This document shows positions 8,180 to 63,822 of a stretch of 64,000 bases of DNA, piece after piece (positions within the stretch are counted from its first letter, which is position 1; every line of letters starts with the position of its first letter). The stretch is taken from the NCBI GenBank assembly GCA_024679065.1, contig JAGIQG010000030.1:10726001-10790000 (forward strand), read 5' to 3'. A program made the position numbers and the translations under genes. Source of the stretch: Sphyrna mokarran. Its lineage: Eukaryota. The notes under the pieces were generated by a model. The model had not been told where the DNA came from. It was given only the letters and a program-made list of their open reading frames with translations, and did not search any database.

Positions 8180-9830
8180 AGGGCGGCAGAGTAATACAAT
8201 GGTTAGCACTGCTGCCTCACTGTGCCAAAGACACGGGTTCAATTCCGGCCTTGAGGTACTGTCCGAGTGGAGTTTGCACATTCTCCTATTTTGTTGTGAT
8301 ATCGATTGAGGGATAAATATTCTTAGAATCTATAGGATCCCTTCAGTGCAGAAGGAGGCCATTTGGCCCCTCAAATCTGCACTGACAACAATCCCATCTA
8401 AGACCCACCCTCGTAATCCCAGATGTGTTCAGTCCACTAATCCCTCTAACCTGCACATCCCAGGATACTAAGGGGCAATTTAGCATGGCCAATGCACCTA
8501 ACCTGTATTCTTTTCAGATGTTATGCAGGCAACATCTGGAATCCATTGTTGGTGTTCAACCACAACAGTGTATTATAGAAGAAATGTTACCTTCGCTTTC
8601 ACTAGGCTAAATATATCTGGGATTACAGGGATGAGGCCTGGGTGGGATTGTTGTCGGTACAGGCTTGATGGGCCAAATGGCCTCCTTCTGTACTATAGGG
8701 ATTCTATGGATCTTGTGACTATTTATCGGTCAATCAACAGCATAATAAAATGTGCAAACTCCACTCAGACAGTCACCTAAGGCCAGAATCGAACCCAAAT
8801 CCCTGGCGCTGTGAGGCAGCAGTGCTAAATACTGTGCCACTCTGCTGCCTTTTTTTTCCTTCTGAGAGGTAGAAAATGCTTTAGTTTAATATCTCAGCCA
8901 GCACTCCCGCAGTATTGCATGAGATTGTCAGCTTTTTGTTTTTGCAACTGAGTCCTGGAGTTGGACTTAAACCCCATCGAGGCAAGACAGTTACACAGGG
9001 ACTTAACACCTGCGTGGGTTTCCTCTGGGTGCTCTGGTTTCCTCCCATACTCCAAAGATGTGCAGGTTAGTTGGGTTGGCCATGTGAAATTGCCCCTTAC
9101 TGTCCCAGGATGTTAGGTTAGGTGGATTAGCCATGGTAAATGCATAAGATGATGGAGATAGGACAGAGGGGAGAGGTAGGTTGGGGTGCTATTTTGAAGA
9201 CTCAGTACAGATTCAATAGGTCAGATGGCCTCCTTTTTCAGGGATTCTATAATTGATCCCATGCCACTATTTCAAAGTAGAGCAGAAACTAGTGTCCTGG
9301 ACAATATGGAAGTAGTGGTGGCACAGTGGTTAGCGCTGCTGCCTCACAGCTCCAAGGACTTGGGTTCAATTCCCGGCTGAGGTCACTGTCTGTGTAGAGT
9401 TGCATGTCCTCCCCATGTCTGCAAGGGTTTACTCCAGGTGCTCCAATTTCCTCCCAGAGTCCAAAGGTACGCAGTTTAGGTGCATTGACCATGTTAAATT
9501 ACCTCTTAGTGTTCCAGAATGCATAGGTTAGAGGGATTAGCCGGCTAAACATATCTGGGATTATGGGGCCTGGGTGGGATTGTTGTCAGTGCAGGCTTAA
9601 TGGGCCAAATGGTCTCTTTCTGCACTGCAGGGATTCTATGAATATTTATCCCTCAATCAACATCATAATAAAATGGATTATCTGGTCATTATTGCACTGC
9701 TGTTTGTGAGAACTTGCTCTGTGCAAATTGACTGCCCTATTTCCTACACCATGACAGTGCCACCACCATGAAAGTGTAAACATCTTGGGCCATTTAGTGG
9801 TTATGCAAAGTGCTACATAAATGCAAATCT
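8180..9830. mobile_element. Nested cluster of HE1-like SINE pieces on both strands with DeuSINE fragments
   Basis: SINE head 8180-8290(+); 8325-8520 and 8750-8850(-); 8600-8710(+); 9010-9252(+); full copy 9316-9640(+) that splits a DeuSINE between GTGTCCTGGACAATAT and AATATTTATCCCTCAATC. Confidence 0.75.
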
Positions 9831-10926
9831 TCCCTTTGTCTTACACGGGGCATGCTAGCAGCAGATGGGAGTGCAAAGTAAAAGCGAAGGTAACGTTTCT
9901 TCTACAATACACTGTTGTGTTTGAACACCAACAATGGATTCCAGATGTTGCCTGCACAATACTGGAGAAGCAACATTAAAGTCTCTTCAATACACGACCG
10001 GACTGGAAAAGCTGAATGTCCTCTTCGTGTTTCTGTGACTCTGTCATCCCAGTTTAGTAAAATCCACTCCATGAAGACTCAAGACTGTAAAAATATTTAT
10101 TTTTCTCAAGGGAGGCATTGATTTAGCTATTTGAATTTCTGCCTTCACCACTTCAGTTAAAGCTTGGCTGAAGAGTTTGTTCGAATAATAGAAAGAAGCT
10201 GACACCGCTTAAGTATAATTATCCAGTTGGTGCTTCTCTCCTGAAGGCCTTTGGTCCCGCTAGAGTAAGTTCCACAGACTCCGCTTACCATGTTTCAAGA
10301 TCTAAGCCCAAGCAGTGGGCGTCAACAGGCTGGTCCAGTCATACATTAAATTGATCTTTCTCTTCACCCGACCTGTAGCTATTCACTATGGACACAATCT
10401 TAGCAGCTGTTCACGCCACACTCCTGCTAGAGTGAAATTGGCAGCCAGCCAAATCTCCATTCACTGCAGCGGGATGGGAAAATCCTGCCGGTGTGAATAG
10501 TGATAAGATTCCGGCCTGTGATCTGTGTTCTATTCTTTTCCTTTTCCCCCATGCACTTCGTGAACGGTATGTCTTTTCAGTATTGTGCGCAAGAAACAAT
10601 ACTTTTCACTATATCCCAATACACGTGACAGCAATAAATCAAATCAAATCAACAGACTATTCAACTATGGTGGGAACTATGACCCCAGTGTCTTCAGAGT
10701 CAATCATTAAGACCTTGAAAGCAGTATCTAATTATTACCCCCCCACCACCACCCATTGAACACAGCTAATTCAATCCAGAAGGGGGAAAAGAAACTAAGT
10801 TTATATAGCACATTTCATAACTTCAGGAGGTCCCAAAGCAGTACTGAGGGAGCATTACACTGCAAGAGGTCCAATCTTTCAGATAACATCTTAAACCGGG
10901 GTACTATCTCCCTCTCAGGTGGATTA

Positions 10927-12519: not shown

Positions 12520-12878
12520 AACTTTATTTATTTATTAGAGTCACACGAAATCTCACATTAACATGAAATTACTGTGAAAATCCCCTAGGTGCCGTACCCT
12601 GGGTACAATGACGAAGAACAGATGTAGTCTAAGTGAATGGCAGAGCAGATCAGATGGGCTGAATGGTCCACTATACCCTGCTCCTGAAGTTCTTCCTTCA
12701 CTACATATGGGGTAACAAGCACATCTTTCAGACTGTGGGAGGAAACCGGAGGAAACCCACGCAGACACAGGGAGAATGTAGAGATTCTGCACAATTAGTG
12801 GAACCTAAGCTGGAATCCTTACCCAGATCCCTGGTGCTATGAGGCAGCAGTGCTAACCACTGTGTCACTGTGCTGCCC
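12520..12878 (-). mobile_element. HE1-like SINE (tail B) carrying an 87-bp foreign inverted insert at 12625-12711
   Basis: SINE head at 12830-12878 and tail at 12520-12600; the insert equals the reverse complement of 13206-13292. Confidence 0.85.
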
Positions 12879-13016: not shown

Positions 13017-13207
13017 GGCCAGAATTCTATAGCCATTCACATTTTCTGGCCGGCAGCACACCCCCATCTGCGGGATTCCCGCTGGAATGGGATAACATTA
13101 ATCAGAATTCCCATTGATAGTGGCGGGACCAGGGAATCCTACTGCTCGCAAGCAACCTGCTCCCACCAACAGGAAACATGCGGCTGGGAGATGGGAGAAT
13201 TCAGGCC
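13017..13207. mobile_element. MITE-like element, 12-bp TIR and 3-bp TSD (PIF/Harbinger-like)
   Basis: CAT|GGCCAGAATTCT ... AGAATTCAGGCC|CAT; TIRs match at 11/12 positions. Confidence 0.65.
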
Positions 13208-13384
13208 CATATGTAGTGAAGGAAGAACTTTAGGAACAGGGTACCGTGGACCATTCAGCCCATCTGATCTGCTCTGCCATTCACTTAGACTATGACTGAT
13301 CTGCACCCTAACTCCAATTACCCATTGCTGTTCCACTCCTTTCTTCACCCGCTCCTAAAGAAACCTGTCTTCATATTGTTAGAA

Positions 13385-13811: not shown

Positions 13812-15615
13812 AGGAAACTATGGGTGAACATCTACAGCTGACTAATGTCAGACCTGAGGCATTCAAGTTGGGTGACCCTGACCTATACAAGAAATCCTGA
13901 TACGATCTAAGGAGAACCATCAAAGAAGCCAAGACACAGTACTGGAGAAAGCTAGGATCTCTGGCTAGCCACACAAACAACCTCCAATTATGGCAAGGTC
14001 TACATGACATAAGAGACTAGAAGGTGAAGATGTGTACCATTGGCAGCTACATCGCACACCTCCACAACGAGTTCTATGCCTTTTTTGAGCATGAGATCAG
14101 CAAGAGGACGTCATCCAACTCAGAAACCTTCATCTGACACCACCTTCAGAGATATCAGATGGGCTTTCTTGAAAATTAACCCATTGGAAAGCGATGGATG
14201 CCTGGACGGATCAGCTGGCGGGAGTATTCATAGACATCTGTAAGCTCTCCTTACAACAATCTGAGGTGCCTATCTGCTTGAAGAAGATGACAATTATTCC
14301 TGTATCAAAAAACAGGCAGACAACATGTTTTAGTGACTATTGTCTAGTGGATCTGACACCCATAATTATGAAGTGTTGTGAAAGGTTAGTCGTGGCATGG
14401 ATCAATTTTATCTCTCAGACTGCCTGGATTCACTACACTTCACCTATCACTGCAACAGGTCCACAGCAGACTCCATCTCTCTGGCCTTACACTCAACTCT
14501 GGAACACCTGGGTAACAAGGACACCCTTGTCAGGTTTCTATTTATTGACTACACCTCAGCCTTCAACACAACTATTCCTCCAAAACTCATCCCCAAACTC
14601 CATGGCCTGGGGTTCTGCACATCCCTCTGTAACTGGATCCTGAACTTCCTAACTCACTGGCCATAAGCAATAAGGATAAGTAACAACACCTCCTCTACAA
14701 TTATCCTCAACAGCCATTCCCACAAGGCTGTGTCCTCTGCCCTGTAGGATTCTCCTTATACACCTATGATTGTGTGGCCAAATTCTGCTCCAACTTCATT
14801 TTCGAGTTTGCTCATGACAGCACTGTAGTGGGTCAGATCGCAAACAATGAAGAGATAGAATATAGAAAAGAAGGAGAGAATTTGATGAACTGGTGTGACA
14901 ACAATAATCTCTCCCTTAATGTCAGTAAAACAAAGGAGATAGTCATTGACTGCAGGAAGGATAATAGAGGACATGCCCCTTTCTACATTAATAGTGATAA
15001 AATGAAAACAGTCGAGAGCTTCAAGTTTCTAGGGATCCAGATCACCACCAACATGTCCTGGCCCCGCCACACAGATGCTATCGTGAAGAAAGCCCACATA
15101 TTCCTTTACTTTCTCTGAGGGCTAAGGAAATTTGGCATGTTTGCTACAACTCTTATCAATTTTTACAGATGCACCATAGAAAGCATTCTTTCCAGTTATA
15201 TTACAGCTTGGGTATGGCTCCTGCTCTGCCCAAGACTGCAAGGAAATACAAAGGGTAGCCCAGGCCATCACTCAAACCAGTCTCCCATCTATTGACGCCA
15301 TTTACACTTCCAGCTGCCTTGGAAAAGGAACCAGCATAATCAAGGACCCCATGCATTCTGGACATTCTCTCTTCCACCTTCTTCAAGAAAGTGATATAAA
15401 AATCTGAGATCATATACCAACTGACTCAAGAACAGTTTCTTCCCTGCTGGACCTACCATTTATTAAGCTGTCCTTTCTCTATACAGCATTATATTTTACA
15501 TGCTCTCTTTTCCTTCTCCCATGTGTACTCTATGAATGGTATGTTTTGCCTGCAAAGTGCACAAGAAACAATACTTTTCACTGTATCTCAACACATGTGG
15601 CAATAATAAATCAAA
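13812..15615 (+). mobile_element. Rex1/Babar-type LINE, 5'-truncated and decayed
   Basis: RT motifs [45 protein letters not shown]...[45 protein letters not shown]; 3' end TTTTCACTGTATCTCAACACATGTGGCAATAATAAATC. Confidence 0.88.
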
Positions 15616-21804: not shown

Positions 21805-22120
21805 AGAATCAGAATCCTACAGTGCAGAAGGAGGCCACTTGGCCTACTGAGTCTGCACTGACCACAATCCCACCCAGGCCCTATCCCCATAGCCCCATAT
21901 ATTTACCCTAACCAGTCCTCCTGACACTAAGGGGCAATTTAATACGGCCAATCCACCCAACCCGCACATTTTTGGACTGTGGGAAGAGCACCCAGAGGAA
22001 ATGCATGTAGACATGGGGAGAATGTGCAAACTCCACAACAGAGTGACCAAGCCAGGAATCAAACACAGGTCCTTAGCACTGTGAGGCAGCAGTGCTAACC
22101 ATTGTGTCATCATGCTGCCT
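21805..22120 (-). mobile_element. HE1-like SINE, tail A
   Basis: Full-length copy. Confidence 0.88.
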
Positions 22121-22379
22121 AAACTCAAACTCCACCATCTACCGTGATGGGATTCGAACTCAGGTCCTCAGAGCATTAGTTGAGTTTTCTCGATAACAAC
22201 CTATTGATAATACCACTAAGCCATCGCCTCCCTTACCTATCTTTCCCATACTCTCTGAAATTCTCTCTCCATGTTTGAATGTCTTTTCAAAACACACATT
22301 TTCAATCTCTATTCCTCTCTCTGCAGACTTGACTTTGGGAATTCCTGCACCAATAGCCTCTCAACTTGCTCTTCTTCCC

Positions 22380-22735
22380 CTTGTATTTAACACTGTCTTT
22401 ATCCAGCCTGTGGAAATCACCCTGCGTTCTTCCACCGTCCCTCTCTATCTCTCTAACCTCTTCCATCCCTACAACCCCAAGAGAACTCTGACCTTTCCTA
22501 TTCTGGCCTCTTGTGCATTCCCATTTCTCATCACATTCCAGTCACACAATCAACTGCAGCTCCAGAAGTGCCCCGCTAAATCTCTCCAATTCATCACTGC
22601 TCTCACCCCTTTTAAAATACTCCTGAAAACCCAGCTTTGTGAACACGCTGTGAATGTCCTGATTTCTCCTTATGTAGGTCAGCATTTGATAATACTCTAT
22701 GAAGTATCTAAGGATGCTTTATTATGGATAAGATG
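22380..22735 (+). mobile_element. Old L2-like LINE 3' fragment
   Basis: CCCTCTATCTCTCTAACCTCTTCCATCCCTACAACCCC..AGAACTCTG and TTTAAAATACTCCTGAAAACCCAGCT (YLSNLF.PY.P.RTL / FKILLKTQL). Confidence 0.55.
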
Positions 22736-23248
22736 TAACCCTGGTGGTAGAGGGGTGGGGGGCTATGGAGGAAGGGCAGGGAGGGTCTGTTGCCATTCTG
22801 CAGGCGATTGGTGGAGGGGAAGGGGACAGAGGGTCACAACTGATCTGCTAGCAGGGGGAGGGGGGGGTGCGGGTGGATAAGGAGGACAGTGAGATGGGGG
22901 CCATCTCTCGTGCTTTTCGCCACTTCCTCTGCTTTCTGCAGTCCGAGAGCGATCTGACACGGGCGCGCTTTTTCAAATTTTTTTCCTCATTATGAACACA
23001 CAGCTCAGAGCTCTGATCGTTTCGGCTGCACTGCGCCCTGCCCACAGCGCGATTCGGACCCGTGAATTTTTTTCCAGGCTAAGTGCAAATGGGAGCGCCT
23101 GAGAACAGTTCTTACAAGTCAGATCTGAATTGTGCCCAGATTCAGCACTTAGAATGAAAATGATAAAATCAGGCCTATTGTCTTTCCCAATAATGACAGC
23201 AACAATAATAAACATAAAGCAGTCTTGCCACTGTGTCTGCAATGCTAC

Positions 23249-24432
23249 TGGTGCAGGCAGTGTAAGCAGCAATCCAGTCTTGAGGCCCTGGGGGTATTTA
23301 TTCCATTAATATGTGACAGACCATTACAGTGTCAGCCTGTAATAGAACTGGGGCACCATCTAGTGGGTGTTTTGGGGAGTGCCTTCCCAACTCCTCCAGG
23401 AATCAACAGCAAAACCTGGCCTGCGTTGTTTCCAGATCCTTTAAACAAATCATTGATACAAGTTCCCCACATGCTGCTCATTGCTACATTTTCTTTTGTT
23501 TCCTCATGCTATCTTTCTCTTCCTCTCTCTCACCCGCCCTCCCCCTCCATTCTTACTCTCTCTAACCCCTTCTTTCTCATCGCTTTCTCACAGTCCCCTT
23601 CCTCACACCCACCTCTTCTTCACATTCCCCTTTCTCACTCCCATTCCTCACTCCTTCTCTTTCTCATCCCCTCTCTCTCTCATCATGGCACATTGCTTAG
23701 CACTGTTGCCTCATGGTGCCAGGGACTCAGGTTCAATTCTTGTCTTGGGTCACTCTCATTGTGGAGTCTGCATGTTCTCCCTGTGTCTGCATGGGTTTCC
23801 TCCAAGTGCTCTAGTTTCCTCCCACAGTCTGAAAGATGTGCTGATTACGTGCATTGACCATGCTAAATTCTCCCTCCGTGTACCCGAAGAGGCATCAGAA
23901 TGTGGCAATTAGGGTATTTTCACAGTAATTTCATTGCAGTGTTAATGTAAGCCTACTGTGACAATAACAAATAAACTTAAGCTTAAAAATGTCTCACTCC
24001 CCTCCTTCACACAGCCTCCCTCTCCCTCATGCCACCCCTCTCTGTCAGTCTCTCTTATTGACCCAGACATTGTAAAGATTATTAACTTACTCAGTAACAT
24101 TGCCCCCAAACAAGGGTTTGGTAAAACGTTACTGTTTTCAATGTTATTCAGACGTTCAGACTATAAGTCCCAGCTGCACTGCTGGATTGCAAAGTTACCT
24201 TCTCACACTTGCAGCTCAATCACCTCAAACCAGAGAAAGGAAAGGAAAATCAAACTCATGGCAAAAGATTTAAAATAAAACACCTGCTGCTATTGGGTAC
24301 TAATTTTAATGACTCGACTTCAAGTAGCTGAGGACACGAGAGTCTGACTGTGACTTTACTGTGGATGGCATTTTCCCATCCCACATGCCAGGATAATTGT
24401 AATGGAGAGACTTGAACCATGCAAAGATCATT
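23249..24432 (+). repeat. Copy 1 of a diverged local duplication (tail-B SINE inserted at 23685-23982)
   Basis: Shares blocks with 27026-28305, e.g. CCCTGGGGGTATTTATTCCATTAATATG, TTGATACAAGTTCCC, TTATTAACTTACTCA, CTCAAACCAGAGAAAGGAAAG and AACACCTGCTGCTATTGG. Confidence 0.92.
23351..23369 (-). promoter_or_regulatory. CTCF-like motif (CACCCACTAGATGGTGCCC)
   Basis: By-eye match to the CTCF core CCACYAGRKGGYGC. Confidence 0.55.
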
Positions 24433-24757
24433 GAATCATAGAACCCTACAGTGCAGAAAGAGGTCATTCAGCCCATCAGGTCTGCACCAACCACAATTCC
24501 ACTCACACCTTTTCCCCATAACCCCATGCATTTATATTAGCTAATCCACCTAACACTAAGGAGCAATTTAGCATAGCCAATCCTCCTAACCTGCACATCT
24601 TTGGACTGTGGGAGGAAACTGGAGCACGTGAAGGAAATCCATGCAAACATGGGGAGAATATACAAACTCTACACAGATGGTGACCAAAGCTGGGAATTGA
24701 ACCTGAATCCCTGGCGCAGTGAGGTAGCATTGCTAACCGCTGTGCCACTGTGACACC
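24433..24757 (-). mobile_element. HE1-like SINE (tail A) inserted in a MITE-like element (24365-24822)
   Basis: Flanked by AGATCATTGA / AGATCCGTTGA, which looks like a degenerate TSD. Confidence 0.85.
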
Positions 24758-27025
24758 CCAACAGATCCGTTGACCCCGGGTGAGATTTTCCATTCTTGGG
24801 GGGAGCGTGGCTGGAAAATCCCTCCCTTTGTCTCCGAGTGCATTAAGATGATAAATCAGAGCTCCCATTGGAAGAGGCATTAGCTATCAGCGAGACTTCC
24901 TACTTTTGATGAAGGTGGTCTGGCACTCTCACCTCTGAATCAGAAATTGTTCAGGTCCCATTCCTGGGTCTTGAGCACAAAATCTAAGCTAAATCTCCAA
25001 TGCAGTACTGAAGGAGTGCAGTACTGTCAATGGATGACATGTAAAGCTAAGACCCTGGTCGCCTTTTCAGATGAGTGAAAACAATCTTATGGTGCTACTC
25101 GGAGCAGAACTGATGAGTTCCCACCAGCACGCTGACCAATACTTAAATCTGACGGCAAAGGAGCATTCAGCGAAATGTCGGCACAGTCACCTAGTCGATA
25201 GCAGAAGAACTGAGGTCAAGGAACAGGACAGGAAGAGAAACAAAAAGGGTGCTGGGAGTTGCATTGCTGATTGGGGAGCACATCACAGTTGTGTTAAGGG
25301 AGGAGACATTGGAGATCTTGCACTGAGGCATTATCGTTGGAGCTCAGGACTAGGAAAACCGAAATCACGATATTAGGAGTGTACTATAGACCTCCCAACA
25401 GCCTACAGGAGACAGAGCAGCAGATGTGTAGTCAGATACTGGAAGGGTGTGAAAAAGCAAAATAGTTGTGGTGAGTAACTTTAACTTCCCCAATATTGAC
25501 TGGGCCTCTCTTAGACCCATGGGCTCGGATGGAGAGCAATTTGTTAGATGAGCTCAGGAGGGCTTTTTGTTACAGTATGTTGACAATCTAACCAGGGAGG
25601 AGCCCATACTAGACTTGATATTAAGGAGTGAGACAGGCCAAGTGATCAACATTTTGGGGGGTGACGGGTGCTTTTTAGGCTTAGTGATCTTAATTCTGTA
25701 AGATTTCCAGTGCTTGTGACTCAAGACAAGAGTGGCTCTCGTGTGAGGGTGCTGAATTGGGCAAGGACCAAATTAGACAGGAACAAGGGAATATAGTTTG
25801 GGAGCAACTATTTGAGAGCAAATCCACGTCTGACGTGTGGGAAGATTTTAAAGGTGAATCAATTGAAGTGCAGCACAGGCATGTCCCTGTAAAAATGGAT
25901 AAAAATAGCAAGATCCAGGGACCATGGAAGACAAGGGAAATTATAGACTTAGTCAGAAGGAAAAAGAAAGCATGCAATAAATAGGCATAGGACAATAAAT
26001 AGGCCTAGGCAACTAAAAGTTGACAAAACTCTTGAGGAACATAGTGAACGTATGAAGGAACTTAAACATAGAATTTAGAGACTAAAAGGGGCCACAAAAT
26101 GTCTTTAGCAAATAGGAGCAAGCACAATCCCAAAGCTTTTTATGCATTTATTAGGAGCAAGAAGGTAGCAAGAGAAAGAGTAGGCCCATTCAAGGACAAT
26201 GGAGGGAAGTTACATGTGGAGCCACAGGAAGTGGATGAAATCTTTAATGAATACATTGTATCAGTACCCACCAAAGAGAAGGACATGATGGATGTTGAGG
26301 TCAGGGATAGATGTGTGAATGCTCTAGAGAATGTAAGCATATTGAAAGGGCAAATGTTGAGTATCCTAAATTACGTTAAGGTGGACCAGTCCCAGGGATC
26401 AGATAAGATCTACTCCAGGTTACTGTGGGAGACAAGGGAAGAAATAGCTGGGGTTTAACAGATATCTTCATATCCTCTTTGTCCATAGGTAAGATTCCAG
26501 AGGACTGGAAATTGCCTGTGCTCCCTTGTTTTAGAAAGGAAGCAGGGATAATCCAAGAAATTATAAGCCGGTGAGCTTTTGGAGAAGGTACTTAGGGAGA
26601 AGATATATGAACATTTGGAGGAAAATGGACTAGTCAGTGATGAACAGCGTGGTTTTGGGAAGGTATTGTCTCACCAACTTGATTTTTGAAGTGGTGACAA
26701 AATTAATTGATGAAGGAAGGTCTGCGGATGTACTTTAAATGGACTTTAGTGAAGCATTTGACAAGGTCCCACATGGCAAGGTAGTACAAAAACTGAAATC
26801 ACATGAGATTCAGGGTGGGCTGGCAAGATGGATACAGAACTGGTTTGGTCATAGAAGATAGAGAGAAAAGGTGAAAGAGTGTTTTTCAGAATGGAAATCT
26901 GTAGCCAGTGGTATTCTTCAGGGACCAGTGCTGGAACCTCTGTTGTTCGTAGTATATATAAGTGATCTGGATAAAAATGTAGATGGTGTGATAAGTAAAT
27001 CTGTGAATGACACAAATTTTGTGTT

Positions 27026-28305
27026 TGGTGTGGGCAGTGTAAGCAGCAACCCAGTCTCGAGACCCTGGGGGTATTTATTCCATTAATATGAAATTTTGTA
27101 TTGACCATCACAGTTTCAGCCTATAAAGGGATTGGGGCACCACCTAGTGGGTGTGTGTGGGGGTGCCCCCAACTCCTCCAGGAATCTCAGCAGCAATCCC
27201 GGTCTGTACTCACAGAATCATAGAATCCCTACAGTGCACGTGGAGAACATTTGGTCTATGAACCTGCATCAACAACATTCCCACTCAGGCCCTATCCCCA
27301 TAACCCTGATAGTCTCCCTGACAGTAAGGAGCAATTTAAATATGATGTGGAGATGCATCTCTACATCATGGCTACAAACTGCCAGCTCCAAGTGGAGAGG
27401 ATCTCCAAGAAGATTGTGCATAGCGACACAGACAAGTGCTCACCCCAACTTAGAATAGCCAATCAATAGCCAGTGAATCTGCACATCTTTGGACTGTGGG
27501 AGGAAACCGGAACACCCAGGGGAAACCCACGCAGACTTGGGGAGAACATGCAAACTCTCCACAGACAATGATCCGAGGCCAGAATTGAACCCAGGTCTCT
27601 GGTGCTTTGAGGCAGTAGTGCTAACCACCGTGTTACGGTGCCACCCCAACTAATTGCAGACCCTCTTAAAGAAATAATTGATACAAGTTCCCCAGATGCT
27701 GCTATTATTAAATTTTCTTTTTTGTTTCCTCAATTTCTTTCTTTCCCTCTCTCTCATCTGCCCTCTTTCTTAACCCCTCTCTCTAACATCCTCTTTCTCA
27801 TCCCCCTCTTTCTCGCTCCTCTTGTTCACACCCTCCCTCTTTCTGACTCTCCTTTTATTCCCCCCCTCTTTCTCACAATTCCCTCTCCTTCACACTATGC
27901 CTCTCTGTCAGTCTCTCTCTCTCATTGAGCCACACATTGTAAAGTTTATTAACTTACTCAATAACATTGCTCCCCCAACAAGGGTTTGGTAAAATGTCAC
28001 AGTTTTCAGACATACAGACCAGAAGGTCCCAGCTGCATTGCCAGATTGCAAAGTTAACCCATCACAATTGCAGCTGAGAGGCTTCAATCATCTCAAACCA
28101 GAGAAAGGAAAGAAAAGTCAAACTAACTGGGAAAGATTTAAAGAAAAACACCTGCTGCTATTGGACTAATTTTAATAACTCAACTTGAAGGAGCTGAGGA
28201 CACTAGTGTTTTGAGTGTGACTTTGAGGTGGGTGGCATTTTCCTGTCCCTCCTGCCACGGGAATTGTAGTGGGTGGAACACAAACCATGCAAAAGTCCGT
28301 TGACC
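27026..28305 (+). repeat. Copy 2 of the local duplication, lying inside the CR1 RT domain (SINE inserted at 27214-27645)
   Basis: Colinear with 23249-24432 once each copy's private SINE is removed. Confidence 0.92.
27135..27153 (-). promoter_or_regulatory. CTCF-like motif (CACCCACTAGGTGGTGCCC)
   Basis: By-eye match to the CTCF core; paralogous to 23351-23369. Confidence 0.55.
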
Positions 28306-28626
28306 TCAGTACTGCACTCCCACCCACAGCCCACACGAAGATTGGCAGAGTTGCTGAAAGTGTCGCGGATTGTCAGGGGTTACAACAAGATGTGGGTAGA
28401 TTGGAGACTTGGGCACTGAACTGGCAGATGGCAAAACCCTTAGGAACATTAACATATGGAGGGATCTGGACATGCAGATCCAAGTTCCCTAAAAATGGCA
28501 ACACAGCCAAGGTGATTACAAGGACACATGGCATACTTGCCTTTATTGGATGGGGCATTGAGCGTAACAAATCATGTTGCACCTATATAAAACCTTGGTT
28601 AGGTTGCATTTGGAGTATTGCTTGCA

Positions 28627-28922
28627 GGGCGGCATAGAGGCACAATGGTTGGCACTGCTGCTTCAGGGACCTGGGTACAATTCCCAGCTTGGGTCACTGT
28701 TTGCGTGGAGTCTGCACATTCTCCCAGTGTCTGTGTGAATTTCTCCAAGTGCTCCGATTTCCTCCCACAGTCTGAAAGATGTGCTGGTTAGATTTATTGG
28801 CCATGCTAAATTCTCCCTCAGTGTACCGGACAGGCACCAGAGAGTGGCGAGTAGGGGATTTTCACAGTAACTTCATTGCATTGTCAATGTAAGCCCACTT
28901 ATGATTAATAAATAAACTTTAC
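28627..28922 (+). mobile_element. HE1-like SINE, tail B, nested in CR1
   Basis: Full head, V-domain and tail. Confidence 0.87.
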
Positions 28923-29889
28923 TTCTCTCATCACCACAAAACCAGAAAGACGTGGAAGGTTTGACGAGAGCGCAAAATTGGTTCACCAGGTCTTGAAGGT
29001 GTTGACTACGAGGAGAGGTTGAATGAACTAGGACTGTTTTCACTGGGAAGACGAAAGCTGAGGGGAGACTGATCGAGGTGTACAAAATTATGAGAGGCAT
29101 AGACAGGGTGAATAGTCAGAGACTTTTTCCCAGGGCGGAAGTGTCAATTAAAGGGAGCACGGGTTCAAGATGAGAGGAGAAAAGTTTAATGTGCGGAGGA
29201 TGCTTTTCGCACAGAGTGGTGGGTTTTCACACAGATGACCTGGCCGTTATAATACTGCTGTTTGTAGGAACTTGCCTGGGATGCTGGATCTCAGGGGCAA
29301 AGGGACAGAAGGGTATGCTGAGATGAGATAAGTTGAAAGGGGGCTCATGCAGAAGATAAACAGTGGGATAGGCCAGTTGGACCAAATGGCCTGTTTCTGT
29401 GCTGCAAATTCTTGAAAGCAGACTGTGTGATATCTCGAACTTCAGCAGTGAGACACAAAAGTCTATAATATTAATTCAAAGCAGCAAGAGTAATTCCAAT
29501 TCAATGTGTAATTCTTGAGTATTTTAAAACTAATATACAAATTGTTCATTTTAATGACTTATGAATCTTATTCAACATAATTAAAGTTATGGATTGCTTT
29601 CAATAAGTGAGCAATCAGTTACTGAGAATTACAGACACCAACAACAGGGATCAGGAGTAGGTCGTTCAATTGCCTGAGCTTATTTAATTATATTATCTTT
29701 AAACTGCACCTCAACATCATATTACACTCCATCACTTCAAAATACTTCATTGGCGCTGAAGTAATTTGAGATGTGTCAAGGTTGTGGAAGATGCTATGTA
29801 AATGCAAGTCTTTTTTTTAAGATTAAAAAACAACTGTGACTGTAACTCTCAGAAACCAACTACTCATGTTAAGCTATCATGTTTGTGGA

Positions 29890-30125
29890 GGTGGTGGCAA
29901 AGTGGTATTGTCGTAATCCAGAGACCCAGAGTAATGATCTGGGAACCAGGGTTCAAAGCCCATCACAGGAGGTGAGGAAATTTGAATTCAATAAAAATCT
30001 GGAATAAGAAGTCTAATGATGACCGTGAAACCATTGTTGATTGTCATACAAAGCTATCTTGTTAACTAATGCCCTTTAGGGAAGGAAATCTGCCATGTTC
30101 ACCAGGCCTTCATGTGACTCTAGAC
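29890..30125 (+). mobile_element. Second tRNA-derived SINE family (other copies ~33897-34025, 34975-35300, 48675-48920)
   Basis: A-box GTGGCAAAGTGG, B-box GGGTTCAAAGCCC, shared body AATTTGAATTCAATAAAAATCTGGAAT...TTTAGGGAAGGAAATCTG. Confidence 0.75.
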
Positions 30126-31099
30126 CTTGCCAGCAATGCCTACATCTGGCTGGCATAGCAGTTGACACTGCTGCCTCGCAGCACCAAGGACTTGGGTATC
30201 CATCTGTGTTCTTCCTATTCCTCTGGTTTACTCTCACAGTCCAAAGAGGTGCAAGTTAGTTAGATGGGCCATGCTAAATTATCAAAAGATGATAAAATAG
30301 TTAGATTAGTCATAGTAAATGCATGTGTTTACAGGAATGAGGAGTTTAGGAGAAAGACCTTTGCCCAGAGATTGTGAGAATGTAGAACTCACTACCACAG
30401 GGAATGATTGAGATGAGTGGGATGAATGCACTTAAAGATGGAAGCTAAATACTGTAAGTAAATGAGGGAGAAAGGAATAAAGGTTATGTTGATAGGATGA
30501 GACAAAACAGTTTGGGAGGAGGTTTATATCGAGCATAAACTCCAGCACTGACCAGTAGGGCCTGTTTCTCTGTGTTACACTCTATATAATTGTTTGTAAC
30601 ACACATAACACTTGAGCTATTATAGGATCATAGATTTATGGAATTATATTTATATGTTCAGTATATTGCTTTTTGTCCCTCACTTCCACTAGGATGCCTT
30701 GTGGCACATTGGAAGCATCCCCACTGCTGGGCCGAAAACACTTGGTTTGACTTGGCCATGGGGAAGTTTTCAAGGCAGATCAACAGGCTCAAGTTCAGCT
30801 TAGGAATCCTTCCACCCCCTTCCTCTGTATTCCCCAAAAGGGGGAAAAGATTGGATGTGAAAGGATGCTAAAGAAAGCACCTCATTTCCAACCCATAATA
30901 AGCTACAATGAATCTTTCTCGGCAGAAGAGATTTTATTGCCTGCGTTGACTGCAAGATCCACAAGTTAAACTAAAAATGGTAGAGTTTGTCCATATTAAA
31001 TTAATTAATTCTGTCACCAATCACTTTGATCCTTAAGGTCACCTACAAAATAGTCTTATCAGTTCTTGATGTTGGGCTCAAGGATAGCACATTGTTACC

Positions 31100-31118
31100 T
31101 CTCCACTAGATGGTAGTA
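31100..31118 (+). promoter_or_regulatory. CTCF-like motif (TCTCCACTAGATGGTAGTA)
   Basis: By-eye match to the CTCF core in non-repeat sequence. Confidence 0.45.
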
Positions 31119-35577: not shown

Positions 35578-38500
35578 GCAGCACAGTAGCACAGTGCTTA
35601 GCACCGCTGCCTCACAGCACCAGAGACTTGGGTTCAATTCCTGCCTTGGGTCACTGTCTGTGTGGAGTTTGCACATTCTTCCCATGTCAACGTGGGTTTC
35701 CTCCAGGGGCTCCTGGTTTCCTCCCACAGTCGGAAAGACGTGCTGGTTAATTGCATTGACCTGAACAGACAAGGGGGTGTGGTGACCAGGGGAATTTCAC
35801 AGTAACTTCACTGCAGTGAAAATGTAAGAGTAGCTAAGGGGGGAGCGACTGCTCCCCCAAGCACATTTTGCTGAAGTGGCACCTTTTTAACAAGGCATTC
35901 CCCACAGGCCCCTACAGAGGTGCAAAGGAGAAAAGCAATTATCACGATGCAGTTGACACCAAGCATCCCTCGCCAATGCACCAGCTGAGAATGGGTGAGT
36001 ACGTTAAATTTTAAGTACATTGCAAAGATCAACTTCGTTTAATTAATCAAATTAGTGAATGGTTTAGTGAATGGTTTAGTGAAAATATTTGATGCGTAAT
36101 TTATAGTTTTAGTCACCATTAATTCAATATTGTGCAACTCAGTATTGAATGAACGGTGACCAAAAATATAAATTACACGCCTGTGTATTATTAGAAATAA
36201 CTACTCCAAAGGTGAACTAGAATCTGGCATCTTGTATCTCTCAATTTGAACGAACATTTGATTGATTTGTCCATTTTTAACACTGGTTATTTCGAGCTAG
36301 CTGTTTCTTGAGCATAGCCAATGAATTAATGAGTTTAGAGAAGTGACATGATTGCTATTATTGCCATGATTTCTAGTTTCTGCAGGATACAATGACACAC
36401 ACCCTGCATACCTGCTCAGTGGGTACAGGTGCACATGTCCTGCCATGCATGCTCAATGGGTACAAGTGCACATGCCCTGCTATGTGAGATCAAAGTGAGA
36501 AAGGCAATGTGGATTACAGGGTTGCTCAATTTAATATACGGCAATATGTATTGAAAGGCAATTTTGAGTTGCTTTTTCATTTCATTATGAAGGTGTTTTG
36601 TGTCTATTGTAAGATTGCCTAGAAAGACTATCATTTTTTCTGATAAGGAAATCCATGGAGATAAAAAAGAAGAAACTGTCTGCGTGGGACAAAAAGAAGA
36701 TGAAAGAAGTTGCAAATTGAGAAAAAGAATTGTCAGAATGTCAGAGATTGGAGGCCTACTTTTCATTCAGCAAGCACGCAATGTCCACTGCACCAGAGGT
36801 GGAACACTCTAAAGACCTGCTAGTATTTACTTCCTTCCTAGAAGCTGGTGACAGCACCCTTGCCACTGCAGAAATGGAAATGGAGCCCCTAGAAGACATG
36901 ACCATTTCAGCAGACTATCATCCAGGAGGTGAAGATGATACAATAAGACTATGTGCGATCACTGACACACATACGGAATCCCCAACAGACTCATACCCGT
37001 TTTGTGAAACACCTGTAACCTGTACGTGCTCTTCTTGAGTTAGGCCCTTGTCAGCCAGGTCTTAGAGATAATTTTGACAGTTTTCCAAAAGATGAAGCTG
37101 GACATCATTTCAGTGCAATTTGGTACAAGAAACAAGTCAAAACTTGTTATGAAATGGATAGACACTGGCTGGTTTATTCACCAAGAGCAAACACTATGCT
37201 TTGTTTTGCTTGTTGGCTTTTTGCAAATCAGTCAGATAGTTGGAGTGATCCAAAAACTGGTTGCAAGAATTTTGTTAAAGGTACACACAAAATTGAAAAA
37301 TATGAACAAAGTGGAAGTCACAAAAAAGCAAAGAAATTATTTTTCCTTTCCAAATTTCGTTTGTTTGATGACAGAACTGTCTTGGTTGGCCTTGTAACAG
37401 TGAGAAGGAAAGAGAGAAAAATAGGATGATTCTAACCTGTGTTATAGATGCAGTCCTTTATTTGGGAAAAACAGGGATTGGCGTTCCGTAGTCATTTCGA
37501 GTATCAAGGTTTAGATTCCCCAAGTATAAATGAAGGCAATTGTTTGGAACTCATTAATGTGTTTGCCAAAAATAATACATTACAGGAACAACATTTATTA
37601 CTGAATGATTGAAATGCAACATATCTCAGCCCTGACATACAAAATAATCTGATACAGTCCTTATCAGCCCAGATTCTATCAAAGTTAATAGCTGAAATCA
37701 AAGTTTGCAATAATTGTTGACTCTACTATTGATATTGGCAGAACTGATCAATTTTCTTCATCGTTACAATATGTAACAGTAAATAGTGATGCAATGGAAC
37801 GATTTATACAATTCAGCGAATTACCTGGAGCAAGAGCTGAAGATTTTTTCAATGTTCTTTTTCCAGCAATCAAAAACTTCGGGCTGTCAATGATTATGTG
37901 TTACAGTCAGTCTTACGATGGTGCAAGCATCATGTCGGGTGAAATATCTGACCTCCAAACAAAGATTATGGAAGTTGCTCCAAGTGCACTTTTTACACAC
38001 TGCTGCGCACATAATTTAAATTTGGTTCTAATTGATGCAGTAAGTTCCAATATTCAATCCATGTTGTTTTTTGGAAGTTCACAAAGTGTCTATATCTTTT
38101 TTTTAATATAAAATACAAGCTGCATAGAGAACATAAAAGAAAACGATTCCATGAAGAAATTGCAGAGGCTGAAGGAATATTTGATGTCCAAAAGAATTTC
38201 ATAGTTGAATCCTACTTAGTGTCCTTAGATTCTGTTATAAATAGCATGAGTAAAAGAGTTGAGCATTTTAAAAATGTGGCTTCCAAATTTAGTGGTTTAG
38301 ATTCAAAGCATTTTGACAACGCAGATAATGTGAACAAATTAGAATTTTTAGCAGACACGTACTCAGACATCATCGATGGTCAAAGTGAAATCGTACAAGA
38401 GTTTCTTTGATTCAAAGACATGTACAAAGAGATAATGAACACTAGCAGTAAGGTAAATTCAAAGTGTCAAGAAACTGGCCATCAACAATGAAATAAAATT

Positions 38501-39626: not shown

Positions 39627-39645
39627 CAGCCACCAGATGGAGCAT
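39627..39645 (+). promoter_or_regulatory. CTCF-like motif (CAGCCACCAGATGGAGCAT)
   Basis: By-eye match to the CTCF core inside a repeat-free block (~39430-39760). Confidence 0.5.
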
Positions 39646-44549: not shown

Positions 44550-45022
44550 TAGTATGCTATCAGGACTTGATGGTTTGAGTTATAAGGAGAGGCTGGATAG
44601 ACTGGGACTTTTTTCTTTGGAGCATAGAAGGCTAAGGGGTGATCTTATAGGGGTCTATAAAATAATGAAGGGCATAAATCAGCTAGACTGTCAATATCTT
44701 TTCCCAAAAGTAGGGGAGTCTAAAACTAGAGGGCATAGGTTTAAGGTGAGAGGGGAGAGATGCAAAAGTGTCCAGAAGGGCAATTTTTTCACACAGAGGG
44801 TAGTGAGTGTCTGGAACAAGCTGCCAGAGGTAGTAGTAGAGACAGGTACAATTTTGTCTTTTAAAAACCATTTAGACAGTTATATAGGGAAGATGGGTAT
44901 AATGGGATATGGGCCAAGTGTAGGCAATTGGAGTTAGCTTAGGGGTTTAAAAAAAAGGGCAGCATGGACAAGTTGGGCCAAAGAGCCTGTTTCCATGCTG
45001 TAAACCTTTATGACTTTATGAC
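44550..45022 (+). mobile_element. CR1 LINE 3' end with open ORF2 C-terminus
   Basis: LSYKERLDRLGLFSLEHRRLRGDLIGVYKIMKG...TRGHRFKV...FFTQRVVSVWNKLP; (TTTATGAC)n tail. Confidence 0.92.
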
Positions 45023-45773
45023 TACATACAGAGGAATTGTTGAGGAACACTGAGATATCTGGGCATTGCTAGCAATAATTGTCCATTGCTTGTTGCCCTC
45101 AGAAGTGATGGTGACTCTTCCTAAACCAATTTTGAGTGGTTTAATTGGCCATTTAAGAAATTAATTACATTGGATATATGACAGAGTAACAGACCATTCA
45201 GCCCATGTCAACATCTATGACCCACTGGTATATCCTGCCATCTTTTCTCATCTGAATCTCTTTTTGCAATCCAGTCAATTCCCTTCTCCTTCATTTCTTG
45301 TATAGTTTCTCCCTAAATGTATCTATCCTACTCATGTTAACCACTCCCTGAGGTAGCGGTGTTCCACATTCTCACCACTCTTTGGGTAAAGATGTTTCAT
45401 CTGAATTCCCCATTGATTTTCTTGGTGGCCATTTATATTGACAGTCTTTGTTCTTCTCCACTACCCAATCAAAACATTATATATTATTAAACATCTCTAT
45501 CAAGTCACCTCCCAGCTTCCTTTTCTCAAGAGAAATGAGAGTAAGCTATGACTCTATGACTCTACATACAGAGGAATTGTTGAGGAACACTGAGATATCT
45601 GGGCATTGCTAGCAATAATTGTCCATTGCTTGTTGCCCTCAGAAGTGATGGTGACTCTTCCTGAACCAATTTTGAGTAGTTTGATTGGCCATTTAAGAAA
45701 TTAATTACACTGGATATATGACAGAGTAACAGACCATTCAGCCCATGTCAACATCTGGTATATCCTGCCATCT
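45009..45773 (+). repeat. ~230-bp near-identical direct repeat (45009-45243 and 45547-45773)
   Basis: Direct comparison: 4 transitions in the body, a 10-bp deletion in copy 2, and small differences in the tail repeat. Confidence 0.96.
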
Positions 45774-60256: not shown

Positions 60257-60821
60257 CTGCCAAACAGAGAAAGAAATAATGTAAGAAGCGACAGGACCAT
60301 GTCTTAAACACCCTAATGCCCACCTGAGCCGCCAGTATAAAAGGAGATATTCGGGATCTGTTTTTATGTGTGTGGCTCTTTTGAATGGGGGCCCCTCCTC
60401 CACAATGTCCCCGGGACTTGTGGAATCCCCGACCCCTCTGGCTGATATTAATCTCTATTCGTGTGCGTTAGTTTCAATAAATGCAATTATGGACACTTGA
60501 AAACAAATGAAACGCAGCCGAACACAAGAAGCGTTTCCAATCTCACTCACAATCCCCGCGACTGCAGCTGGAGAAACAGATCATTTGCTAAATAGATCTT
60601 ATTTCAATCTGGCTGCATGCTAATATTCAGGTGTGTGAGACCACGCCAAGATTATATTTCGGTATTTGTTGTTTAAAAATGCTCAGTATTCCAAACATAT
60701 AGTTTTATTTAACCCTCTTTCAGCAAATTGTCTACTGTTCCCTACTAAACAGAGTGATGACAACATCTCCGCCAGGCTTTTAATAAACCCGAGAATGAAT
60801 GTTTTAAACAATAAAAGTTAC

Positions 60822-62558
60822 CTCCAGTTCTTTCTCTTCCTCAATGTGTTCTCCTGGTCTCACTTCCTCTGACCCCTGCTCTCTGTAAGGTGTTCCCAGG
60901 CTCTGTTTGTTGGGGATTTCTGCTGTGGGTTCAGGATTAGCCACAGTTTCTTGGGGCAACGGGTTCTCTGTCTCTGGGACATTTTCTACCAGCGGTGGGG
61001 AAGATTCGTCCTCCGGACATCTGTTGGACTCCACGTCCACCTCCGGCTCCTCGCCATCACTGTCCACGTCGGGAGACACTGACCTGTAACTCGAGCTTTC
61101 GCTCATAAAGTCGGGGGATAGGTAGCCGGGCCTTGCGCTGTTGTACACCTCCCTGTTACCATAGAGCTTGGCGATGCTCTCCGCGTCTTTGACCACCGGC
61201 CTGAAGGCCGAGATATAGTTGAGTTTTCGGGGCGTGAGGGACATCCCTTCGATAGAGCGGCTCTCATCCCCTGATCTGTCCTCCTCGTTGCGAGAGTGAG
61301 TGCTGGAACATCTCTCGCTGTCCACCAAACTGTCCTTGGGAGTGTTACTGCTCCGGTCACTCTGCTCCGACACGTCGATGTCATTTTGCCTGGCACTGGG
61401 GTTCTCGGTGACCTTCGCCTGTGCCTGGGGGTAGGGGGGCACGGGCAAGGTACCAGCCGCCGGCCAGAACATTGGGAAGGATGGGTAGACGGTGTCTTTG
61501 CTGCCCGACCAGAACATACTGGGCAAAGCTCCCTGAGCCTTGTCCCCCACCACGTTACTTTCGTCCTTCTTCTGACAAAGTCCGAAGGTGGGGAATCCGT
61601 AGGGGTGCGGGAACATGGGGGGAGGGATCTTCTGCAGCATCCCGAAGCTCTTGCTGGGCACCGGGATTACCGGGTAACTCCTCACGTTGTTGCCCAGACT
61701 CAAGCCGCGTCCGTCCTCCTCGCACCGCATGGTTTTGTGGGCGATCTCGGTGCTCCTGGGGGGCATGGAGCTGGGACCCTGAGCTTTGAGGGTTGACGAC
61801 CCCCCGCTCCCCTGGCTGGGGAGGGTCCTCTTGCGGCTGCCTCCATTGAACATCGCCTTGACATCTTCCCAGGCGTGAGCTAAATAGTCAGACGGACTTT
61901 TGTCAGAAAGTTTGAGGTGTCTCCGCCAGGAGTTGAAGTTTGCAGCGTCTGGTTGGGTGTACTTAGTGTCCGGGACTCTGTGAGAATGGAAGATGAATTT
62001 ATTTGGAGAAAAGTACATGTTACAATAGCTGCATTTGATGCACTTGGCCCGAGAGCTGTTATACCTGGCTGGGATGAAGTTCCCGCGACAGCCCCAGGCA
62101 CACTCGTGGGAGACATCGAAGGCAAAGTTCTCGGGTAGTTTGGGAGGCGTGTGCTCGCCCAAGAAAGACTTGCAGAGCCTCTCCGCCTCCCTCTTGGTGA
62201 TCATGCCGCATCTCCTGGAGGAGATGGGCATCGCCCCGGCCCTGCGTAAGATCTCCAGCTGAACCGGGGTGCACTGGACACAAGTGATGCCGAGGGCTAC
62301 CCTCCTGTTGTGGATCTCGTTGTAGCTGTAATTTTTCAGCAGGGTGTTGGAGATCTGGGCCAGACACAGCCTCTCCTGACCGTCAATCACCAGGGAGACA
62401 ATAGGCAGGCCGTACAGAACAGCTTCCCCGATGGTGTTGGTTTTCAGGTTACTGGAGCCGGGATGTTCTCGCTGGCTGTAAGGCTGGAGTTCTTGCTTCG
62501 AACTGGGAGAACTGGAAGCGTCATTCACAACTCCTAGCTGACTAGAAATCTTCTCCAT
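60822..62558 (-). CDS. skor1: SKOR1 first coding exon (SKI/SNO/DAC domain and SAND-like SMAD-binding domain), 579 codons
   Basis: ORF 60804..62558 contains LYGLPIVSLVIDGQERLCLAQISNTLLKNYSYNEIHNRRVALGITCVQCTPVQLEILRRAGAMPISSRRCGMITKREAERLCKSF. SSSPSSKQELQPYS, KNYSYNE and GEHxPPKLPENF match SKOR1 rather than SKOR2 as I recall them. Acceptor TTTTCTTCACAG lies 10 nt upstream of the ATG. Phase-0 donor GAG|GTAACT at 60822; alternative donor GAA|GTGAGA at 60864. Confidence 0.97.
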
Positions 62559-63822
62559 TCCGCAGTTTCTGTGAAGAAAACAGAAATACGATGCGCCAAG
62601 AATTCCAGATAAAAAATGTCTTTTTTAAGAAAAGAGGGCAGAGAATTTGGAAAGCAAGGGCAAAACGCGCATCATCTGAAGAACAAAAGCTCCTTTTAAC
62701 GCATTAACTGCGCAAACAATTTAGGAGCAATAATTAAAATAATTCATCATCCTCTGGGGTAATTGAGAAAAATATTTCCGATCTAAATAACGGAATTCTC
62801 ATTTATAAATATTTAGGGCCGTCTCCGTATCAATACCTAATTATTTTAGGCAAAATTCTGATCAGGATTTTTTAAAAAAGAAAATGCAATTTATTCCAAT
62901 TCATTCGACGAAATTCTCTCCAAACTTAGGACGTTTTAATTACAGGAAATTTTTTTTGGGGGGGGGGGGTTGTAGGTTATGGAGGATTTTCGACTGATTT
63001 ACTCGGGCACAAGTTCCCTTTAATAGTAGAAACCAGCGGTGTGCCTGCCTTTGAGATAATATTCAAACACTTTACCCACTTATTAATACCAGCGGCACAC
63101 GGGTTATAATATCTCATTAGATTAAAAAGACTTCACACGTACAATAACGAATCGTTCACCAAAGCAAACACAACCGCAGCTGTTAGCTCAGTTTCTGCTC
63201 AATGCCTACCTGATCTGTGTCACTTCAGGATTCGAGAAGGTTCCTGTTCAGATTTATTCTACAATGCAGATAAAAAGAAATCGTATTTTTTTAGCAGCGG
63301 AGGCAATCGCAATCTTTAAACCCAGAATCCCTTTTTTTTAAAAAAAATACACGCTCTTTAAATAAACTTAGTTTAGTCCCGCCGAGCTGTAATCCTTACG
63401 AGGAATCATCCCGCTAAATGTATTTAATCCAAAAACAGAGAGAGAGAGAGAGACAGGATGAGCGACTGGGTTTAAGTACTCCAGCGATTTTACAATAACC
63501 ATTGATACGGTCAATTAGTATTTACATCACATCACTAGCCCGGATCAGATAAGTGAATGGGCTTAAATCAGAAGTACTTCCTACAATATAGATCACCACT
63601 GACAACCATTCTTGACTTAAGACTTTTTTTTGGAAAAATACGCGGGGAGATGACTAACAATCCTCAGCACTGCCCAAGAGCCGGAAAGGGGATAGGCTAA
63701 AAGATAACTTTAAACCCGAATCGGTAAAACGGGCTCGTTTAACCGATCGCTACATTGAAGTGTAATTATACAGAGTGCACCTCCATAAGATAGCAAAGGC
63801 CCGTCATCAAAAGTGTGCATTC

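What the first reader, a model, noticed from the sequence alone, without database searches (positions are those of the whole stretch)
23249..28331. Unique ~0.9-kb segment carrying a CTCF-like motif duplicated into the RT motif region of a neighbouring CR1
Seen: 23249-24432 and 27026-28305 are colinear, diverged copies (roughly 75-80% identical by eye). Each gained its own SINE at a different position, so the event is old. Copy 2 interrupts the CR1 exactly at the degenerate FADDTK codons (GACACAAA ... CACACGAAGATTGG), with a ~7-nt overlap and short filler. The 19-bp CTCF-like motif differs by one base between copies, at a position degenerate in the consensus (AGA/AGG), while the flanks have many changes. 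Inference: a local copy-paste event created a second insulator site that has been retained. It could instead be an unclassified non-autonomous element.
Basis: partly seen in the sequence, partly recalled or inferred. Interest (0 to 1): 0.7.

Follow-up and report, generated by a model that had tools for sequence, protein, structure and literature searches.

The report
Repair-copied DNA patch inside old retrotransposon
About 0.85 kb of nearby DNA was copied into an old, dead retrotransposon, likely while a broken chromosome was being repaired; this is a known kind of event, and the CTCF-like motif it carried along has changed as fast as its flanks, so there is no sign yet that a second insulator was kept by selection.

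Summary
The duplication is real. The unique parts hit only these two places in the genome (a CR1 control gave 7472 candidates). Copy 1 is the donor: it holds a whole ~130-nt MITE, copy 2 only the left half. Copy 2 splits a CR1 whose halves join in other copies with a 7-nt overlap (17 of 29); the overlap is a perfect duplication in two related organisms that carry copy 2 at the same junction. Both junctions hold filler; 14 nt of the 3' filler match the opposite strand 235 nt past the donor's end. The CR1 is roughly 1.4-1.9 times older than the duplication. This fits the repair-mediated duplications of Pace et al. 2009 (PMC2671141). The CTCF-like motif is present but not specially conserved: 1 of 19 sites differ between copies against 86 of 601 outside (P 0.22), and 2 of 14 variable sites across organisms fall in it (1.1-1.5 expected). 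Binding is untested. Verdict: new member of a known kind; the insulator claim is open.

The parts
23249..24777 (+). Copy 1, the donor (about 0.89 kb without its two later SINEs)
   Evidence: holds the complete MITE, flanks do not join into a repeat
23353..23366 (-). CTCF-like core motif, copy 1 (1 mismatch to a recalled IUPAC consensus); partial upstream-motif-like stretch at the expected spacing
   Evidence: core resembles the one given in PMC12885311; binding untested
23676..23990 (.). SINE-type repeat inserted in copy 1 only
   Evidence: many hits in the window; absent from copy 2; class name recalled
24361..24826 (+). Complete ~130-nt MITE in copy 1, split by a later SINE
   Evidence: aligns end to end with dispersed copies; inverted ends
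24430..24762 (.). Second SINE-type repeat, inserted in copy 1's MITE, flanked by a 5-nt direct repeat
25013..25026 (-). Likely second template: 14-nt exact reverse-complement match to the start of the 3' filler, inside an old repeat
   Evidence: only 14-nt match in 64 kb; 200 genome matches reported, most of those listed in one tandem array
25223..27016 (+). CR1-type LINE, left part, degenerate (stops, frameshifts)
27010..27016 (+). Left copy of the 7-nt target duplication
   Evidence: identical to the right copy in organisms C and E (27014 A>G)
27017..27025 (+). 5' filler, 9 nt, resembling an inverted copy of the target site
   Evidence: differs at 3 of 9 places in organisms C and E, so the resemblance is imperfect
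27026..28309 (+). Copy 2, the acceptor (about 0.84 kb without its SINE)
   Evidence: present at the same 5' junction in organisms C and E
27137..27150 (-). CTCF-like core motif, copy 2
   Evidence: one change in organism E at a degenerate position, one in organism C at a conserved G (depth 2)
27205..27653 (.). SINE-type repeat inserted in copy 2 only, with an internal stretch of unknown origin
28230..28309 (+). Left half of the MITE, cut mid-element at the end of the copied tract
28310..28332 (+). 3' filler, 23 nt; first 11 nt continue the 14-nt match to 25013-25026, the last 12 have no assigned source
28333..28339 (+). Right copy of the 7-nt target duplication
28333..29225 (+). CR1-type LINE, right part, with its own later SINE (28628-28925) and a ~70-nt deletion near 28430

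Best explanation
This is a local duplication of about 0.85 kb into an older, dead CR1, likely made by templated repair of a germ-line double-strand break (a repair-mediated duplication), and its CTCF-like motif is likely a passenger. Shown: two local copies, donor and acceptor, a 7-nt target duplication, fillers, presence in two relatives. Inferred: a staggered break opened in the CR1; the left end made a short filler, invaded the sister chromatid or the same chromosome about 3.8 kb upstream and copied forward in the same orientation, came off in the middle of a MITE, switched briefly to the opposite strand about 235 nt further on, and was joined to the right end; fill-in left the 7-nt duplication. 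Afterwards both copies drifted at about the neutral rate and took up three SINEs.
For: Unique parts hit two places only, 5(5), 3(3) and 2(2) candidates, against 7472 for the CR1 and 964 for the MITE-containing query. Direction: full MITE in copy 1, half in copy 2; copy 2's flanks join in other CR1 copies (25 joined hits, 8 of the 12 gaps printed are -7), copy 1's flanks do not. 7-nt overlap in 17 of 29 CR1 copies by my arithmetic on the hit ends; perfect in organisms C and E. 14-nt inverted match of the filler near the donor, rough chance 0.003. No poly-A tail or terminal inverted repeats. Age: copies differ by K2P 0.157 (95% 0.124-0.192), about 0.078 each; the CR1 lies 0.10-0.17 from its family majority (weighted 0.146), other copies 0.11-0.14. 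Pace et al. define the class by just this pattern: a TE interrupted by a two-copy sequence whose donor lies within 5 kb, with filler, TSD in some, chimeric donors in 20 cases. Similar local pairs recur nearby. Motif not more conserved than flanks.
Against: No clear microhomology at the 5' junction (1 nt), although Pace et al. saw 2-9 nt in 31 of 39 proximal cases. The tract is longer than their largest proximal human case (619 bp). No empty orthologous site was seen. CR1 age rests on a majority of 18-29 copies chosen for likeness, and its closest pairwise distances (0.15-0.20) overlap the copy-copy interval. The genome search skips very common words and scores only the best candidates. The conservation tests are weak: they cannot exclude tolerant constraint, and 2 of the 3 motif changes seen fall on degenerate positions. 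Sequence cannot tell SDSA from a replication template switch.
Confidence: 0.8

Rival explanations
1. Same duplication, but copy 2's motif binds CTCF and has been kept, adding a second left-facing site to a divergent CTCF cluster between a SKOR-like gene and a PIAS-like gene.
For: 4 one-mismatch matches in the window against 0.61 expected, arranged minus, minus, plus, plus over 16 kb; only 4 more in the other 400 kb. Divergent CTCF sites mark insulation minima in skate (passages). Two of three motif changes are at degenerate positions; organisms C and E keep copy 1's state at 27163 in the upstream-motif-like stretch. SKI-family exon at 60804-62624, PINIT-domain gene about 190 kb to the left.
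Against: No excess conservation (P 0.22 between copies; 2 observed vs 1.1-1.5 expected across organisms). A conserved G is changed in organism C (depth 2, may be an error). 4.4 of the 7 independent matches in 464 kb are expected by chance; three within 16.3 kb has P 0.10. Motif scanning alone predicted binding poorly in PMC5504073.
Confidence: 0.2
2. The segment was captured during the CR1's own insertion, by a template switch of the reverse transcriptase to neighbouring DNA or RNA and back.
For: The insert sits inside the CR1 with a 7-nt re-copied overlap; closest CR1 pairwise distances (0.15-0.20) are not far above 0.157.
Against: The CR1 is about 1.4-1.9 times more diverged from its family than each copy from their ancestor; needs two precise switches; fillers look DNA-templated.
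Confidence: 0.08
3. The segment is a retrocopy of a local transcript, inserted by LINE machinery.
For: 7-nt target duplication; on the minus strand the 5' filler reads A-rich in this genome.
Against: The A-rich look is lost in organisms C and E; no tail on the plus strand; landing within 4 kb of the donor is not expected; none of 39 proximal cases had tails in PMC2671141.
Confidence: 0.04
4. An unclassified non-autonomous element with dispersed copies.
For: Target duplication; the search tool warns that no match does not prove rarity.
Against: Four queries give only the two local copies for the unique parts, while the same search finds 60-80-nt MITE copies at 80-90%; no terminal repeats; copy 1 has no matching target duplication or filler; one end bisects a MITE.
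Confidence: 0.03

Closest known systems
Repair-mediated duplications (RDs), Pace, Sen, Batzer, Feschotte 2009, PMC2671141 (parts 1-3 of 8 read, plus passages)
   Same: TE interrupted by a sequence found at one other place; donor within 5 kb; filler; TSD (4-21 nt there); no poly-A; two-donor chimera with the second donor near the first; predicted TF sites duplicated (21 of 824); found in chicken, zebrafish and mammals.
   Different: About 0.85 kb against a proximal maximum of 619 bp in human; no clear 5' microhomology; a cartilaginous fish by inference, a group not among the genomes they list; CTCF is not mentioned in their main text (0 occurrences).
Templated sequence insertion polymorphisms, PMC5110952 (start of abstract in a search listing only)
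   Same: A templated copy of genomic sequence inserted elsewhere, classed by junction features.
   Different: Described for distant templates and as human polymorphisms; this one is local and old.
Synthesis-dependent MMEJ / polymerase theta templated insertions, PMC2943611, PMC5728401 (search listing and start of abstract only)
   Same: Short fillers copied from sequence next to the break, including inverted copies.
   Different: Accounts for the 9- and 23-nt fillers at most; a tract of 0.85 kb is beyond the usual size (my own knowledge).
TE-driven spread of CTCF sites (passages of PMC5504073, PMC13399162)
   Same: A CTCF-like motif now lies inside a transposon.
   Different: The motif is host DNA copied into the TE, not part of the TE family; one extra copy, not an expansion; binding not shown.

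Membership tests
Repair-mediated duplication (Pace 2009) | Insert of 50 bp or more interrupts a TE whose halves join within 30 nt | tested here: met
   7-nt overlap in 17 of 29 CR1 copies; 25 joined hits
Repair-mediated duplication (Pace 2009) | Insert found at only one other place | tested here: met
   for the non-repeat parts; the low-complexity middle was not searched; tool sensitivity limited
Repair-mediated duplication (Pace 2009) | Donor more than 50 bp and less than 5 kb away | tested here: met
   donor ends 2.2 kb before the insertion point; starts 3.8 kb apart
Repair-mediated duplication (Pace 2009) | Repair marks at the junctions (filler, deletion, TSD or microhomology), no poly-A/T tail | tested here: met
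   fillers of 9 and 23 nt, 7-nt TSD, no tail
Repair-mediated duplication (Pace 2009) | Microhomology between donor and acceptor flanks (most, not all, cases) | tested here: inconclusive
   1 nt at the 5' side; up to 3 nt at the switch to the second template; junctions are old
Repair-mediated duplication (Pace 2009) | Empty orthologous site in an outgroup | tested here: inconclusive
   2 of 4 organisms laid carry the insert; 2 of 4 gave no cover, and paralogous CR1 contigs cannot be told from an empty ortholog
Non-autonomous transposable element | Dispersed copies | tested here: not met
Non-autonomous transposable element | Terminal inverted repeats or tail at the insert's ends | tested here: not met
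   junctions read; the 3' end cuts a MITE in its middle
Functional CTCF site / insulator | Core motif match | tested here: met
   1 mismatch to a recalled 14-letter IUPAC consensus; no weight matrix was available
Functional CTCF site / insulator | Upstream motif at the usual spacing (a subset of sites) | tested here: inconclusive
   copy 1 matches 5 of 10 letters of the consensus in PMC12885311, by eye
Functional CTCF site / insulator | Motif conserved above its flanks | tested here: not met
   P 0.22 between copies; 2 vs 1.1-1.5 expected across organisms for copy 2; low power; copy 1 orthologues not tested
Functional CTCF site / insulator | CTCF binding and insulation in vivo | not testable with these tools
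   no ChIP, ATAC or Hi-C data reached

The most novel reading that the evidence does not exclude
Break repair copied a working CTCF boundary site into a neighbouring LINE and so thickened a divergent CTCF cluster downstream of a SKOR-family developmental gene: a transposon-independent route by which clustered boundary sites are born, kept across several shark lineages.
Probability: 0.2. Interest if true: 0.5.

Novelty: new member of a known kind. Interest (0 to 1): 0.22.

Why it matters
As it stands, a clean and rather long example of a known repair by-product, in a group (cartilaginous fish, inferred) not among the genomes Pace et al. list; it matters little alone. If copy 2 proved bound and constrained, it would be a worked case of how tandem CTCF sites at boundaries can arise without a transposon carrying the motif. 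One search for 'repair-mediated duplication' with 'CTCF' found 0 papers, which is a single narrow search of an open-access library, not proof that the idea is not in print.

Tried and rejected
Dispersed element: four genome searches, rejected; the three extra hits are MITE copies. MITE-driven transposition: rejected, the break is mid-element, not at an end. Coding role: the two long frames over copy 1 (234 and 110 aa) have no Pfam match; 19 of 208 ORFs were scanned. A perfect 7-bp hairpin between target and 5' filler, seen in this genome, was downgraded: 4 of the 16 letters differ in both relatives. A loose inverted likeness between the insert's two ends and an 8-nt match of the filler to the MITE's end were judged chance by eye. 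Landing on the FADDTK codons: no meaning seen, the CR1 was already degenerate. Two-mismatch motif scan: 13 matches vs 9.35 expected, uninformative. No RNA holder listed. Organisms B and D gave no cover over copy 2; a hole proves nothing. Copy 1's motif could not be compared across organisms. Earlier findings nearby: none. A search for the SKOR1-PIAS1 interval and CTCF gave nothing relevant in the 10 listed. No supplements were opened.
Full report
Observation. A self-BLAST of 22000-30500 against the window finds three colinear direct blocks at 82%, 76% and 79% identity. Piecewise alignment gives 87 differences in 620 ungapped columns outside the low-complexity block, K2P 0.157 with a bootstrap interval of 0.124-0.192.

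Copy number. Queries from the unique parts return only the two local copies: 5 candidates for 24040-24430, three of them MITE hits at its end; 3 for 23240-23500; 2 for 27017-27213 at E up to 1. The same search gives 7472 candidates for the CR1 and 964 for a query that includes the MITE half, and it finds matches of 60-80 nt at 80-90%, so it is not blind to diverged repeats. The tool warns that it skips very common words; the low-complexity middle was not searched.

Direction. The last 80 nt of copy 2 (28230-28309) are the left half of a ~130-nt element with inverted ends. Most of the 18 dispersed copies aligned run on to the right end; copy 2 does not; copy 1 does, once the SINE at 24430-24762 is skipped. 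Copy 1 and copy 2 share one departure from the family majority in this part. Copy 2's flanks join in other CR1 copies, copy 1's do not. Copy 1 is therefore the donor.

Junctions. In 17 of 29 CR1 copies fetched the left and right halves overlap by 7 nt (my arithmetic on the hit ends); the other 12 lack a hit at the junction or have indels of their own. The two 7-mers differ at one CpG position in this genome and are identical in organisms C and E (27014 A>G). The 5' filler is 9 nt. In this genome it forms a perfect hairpin with the target, but both relatives differ at 27018, 27024 and 27025, so I keep only the weaker claim that it resembles an inverted copy of the target. The 3' filler is 23 nt; 28307-28320 match 25013-25026 on the opposite strand, the only 14-nt match in the window. 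The genome count for this 14-mer is 200 (31 plus 169, a round number that may be a cap); of the first 100 listed most lie in one tandem array. With about 60 dispersed places, my rough chance for one within 5 kb, allowing for a dozen possible 14-mers, is 0.003. The last 12 filler bases have no assigned source.

Age. Each copy is about 0.078 from the common ancestor. Five CR1 blocks lie 0.143, 0.174, 0.158, 0.165 and 0.104 from the majority of 18-29 related copies; the other copies lie 0.11-0.14 from it. The CR1 is thus about 1.4-1.9 times older. The closest pairwise distances, 0.15-0.20, leave some room for a smaller gap. Organisms C and E each have one contig that runs from the CR1 into copy 2 with 24 differences in about 273 nt, so the duplication is older than their split from this lineage. 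B and D gave no cover.

The motif. Both copies match a recalled 14-letter CTCF consensus with one mismatch, on the minus strand; the core given in PMC12885311 is similar (passages). Between copies 1 of 19 sites differ, against 86 of 601 outside: P 0.22; for the 14-nt core P 0.39; 9 separate stretches of the alignment are as well conserved. Across this genome, C and E, 14 sites vary in 27026-27200, 2 of them in the core, with 1.1-1.5 expected. One (27147, organism E, depth 15) is a permitted change at a degenerate position; the other (27140, organism C, depth 2) hits a conserved G and may be an error. So there is no deficit of change, though two of three known changes are tolerated and power is low. 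Copy 1's orthologues were not compared.

Context. A SKI-family exon lies at 60804-62624 on the minus strand and a PINIT-domain gene about 190 kb to the left on the same strand; by the recalled human order this is likely the SKOR1-PIAS1 interval. Four motif matches lie at 23353 and 27137 (minus) and 31103 and 39630 (plus), against 0.61 expected in the window: a divergent layout like that at skate insulation minima (PMC10115646, passages). But only 7 independent matches lie in 464 kb, 4.4 expected by chance, and three within 16.3 kb has P 0.10. This is a lead, not evidence of a boundary.

Base rate. In 464 kb, 11 other pairs of locally two-copy sequence lie within 10 kb of each other; uniqueness was judged only against the fetched DNA. 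Of the 10 put to the flank test, 2 interrupt a repeat (12625-12711 with 11 joined hits, 8521-8603 with 1), and 45009-45243 / 45547-45773 has just two full-length genome hits. Such pairs are not rare here.

Comparison. Pace et al. 2009 (PMC2671141; parts 1-3 of 8 and passages) found 824 human cases by looking for exactly this: a TE interrupted by a two-copy sequence with the donor within 5 kb, filler, sometimes a TSD, sometimes two donors, no tail. They report duplicated predicted TF sites in 21 cases and 80 cases in zebrafish. This case meets the defining features that could be tested; it is longer than their largest proximal case and lacks clear 5' microhomology. SDSA and a replication template switch cannot be told apart here.

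Verdict. A repair-mediated duplication, confidence 0.8; new member of a known kind; interest 0.22. The retained-insulator reading stays possible at about 0.2.

Noticed in passing
window 60804-62624 (-): 606-codon open frame with SKI/SNO and SMAD4-binding domains, a SKOR-like gene with a CpG-island-like stretch; a PINIT-domain (PIAS-like) gene lies at G000:C883:10557381, about 190 kb left of the finding.
   Followed up: partly
window 31103-31116 (+) and 39630-39643 (+): Two more CTCF-like motifs facing away from the two in the finding; a divergent layout over 16 kb, P 0.10 as a cluster.
   Followed up: partly
window 45009-45243 and 45547-45773: A younger direct local pair, 93% identical, 304 nt apart, with only two full-length hits in the genome; flanks did not join into a repeat.
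   Followed up: partly
window 12625-12711 and 13206-13292: 87-nt inverted local pair, 95% identical; the first copy interrupts a repeat (11 joined hits), a likely second repair-mediated duplication.
   Followed up: partly
window 8521-8603 and 9877-9959: 83-nt inverted local pair, 94% identical; one joined-flank hit.
   Followed up: partly
window 24361-24428 vs 28230-28293: Copy 1's MITE half is far more diverged from the family majority (18 of 77) than copy 2's (4 of 80); partly a bias, since the copies were fetched with copy 2, but not fully explained.
   Followed up: partly
L014 near 1860-2024: Another CR1 copy carries an unrelated ~170-nt insert at nearly the same codons; 1 of 29, not beyond chance by a rough estimate.
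   Followed up: no
G000:C882:136863940-136873660: A tandem array with a period of about 16 nt that contains the filler 14-mer many times, perhaps derived from the same old repeat.
   Followed up: no
window 14684-15115 (+): Reverse-transcriptase fragment of another LINE.
   Followed up: no
window 37692-38108 (+): Weak DUF4371 match below cut-off, likely a DNA-transposon remnant (the family link is recalled).
   Followed up: no
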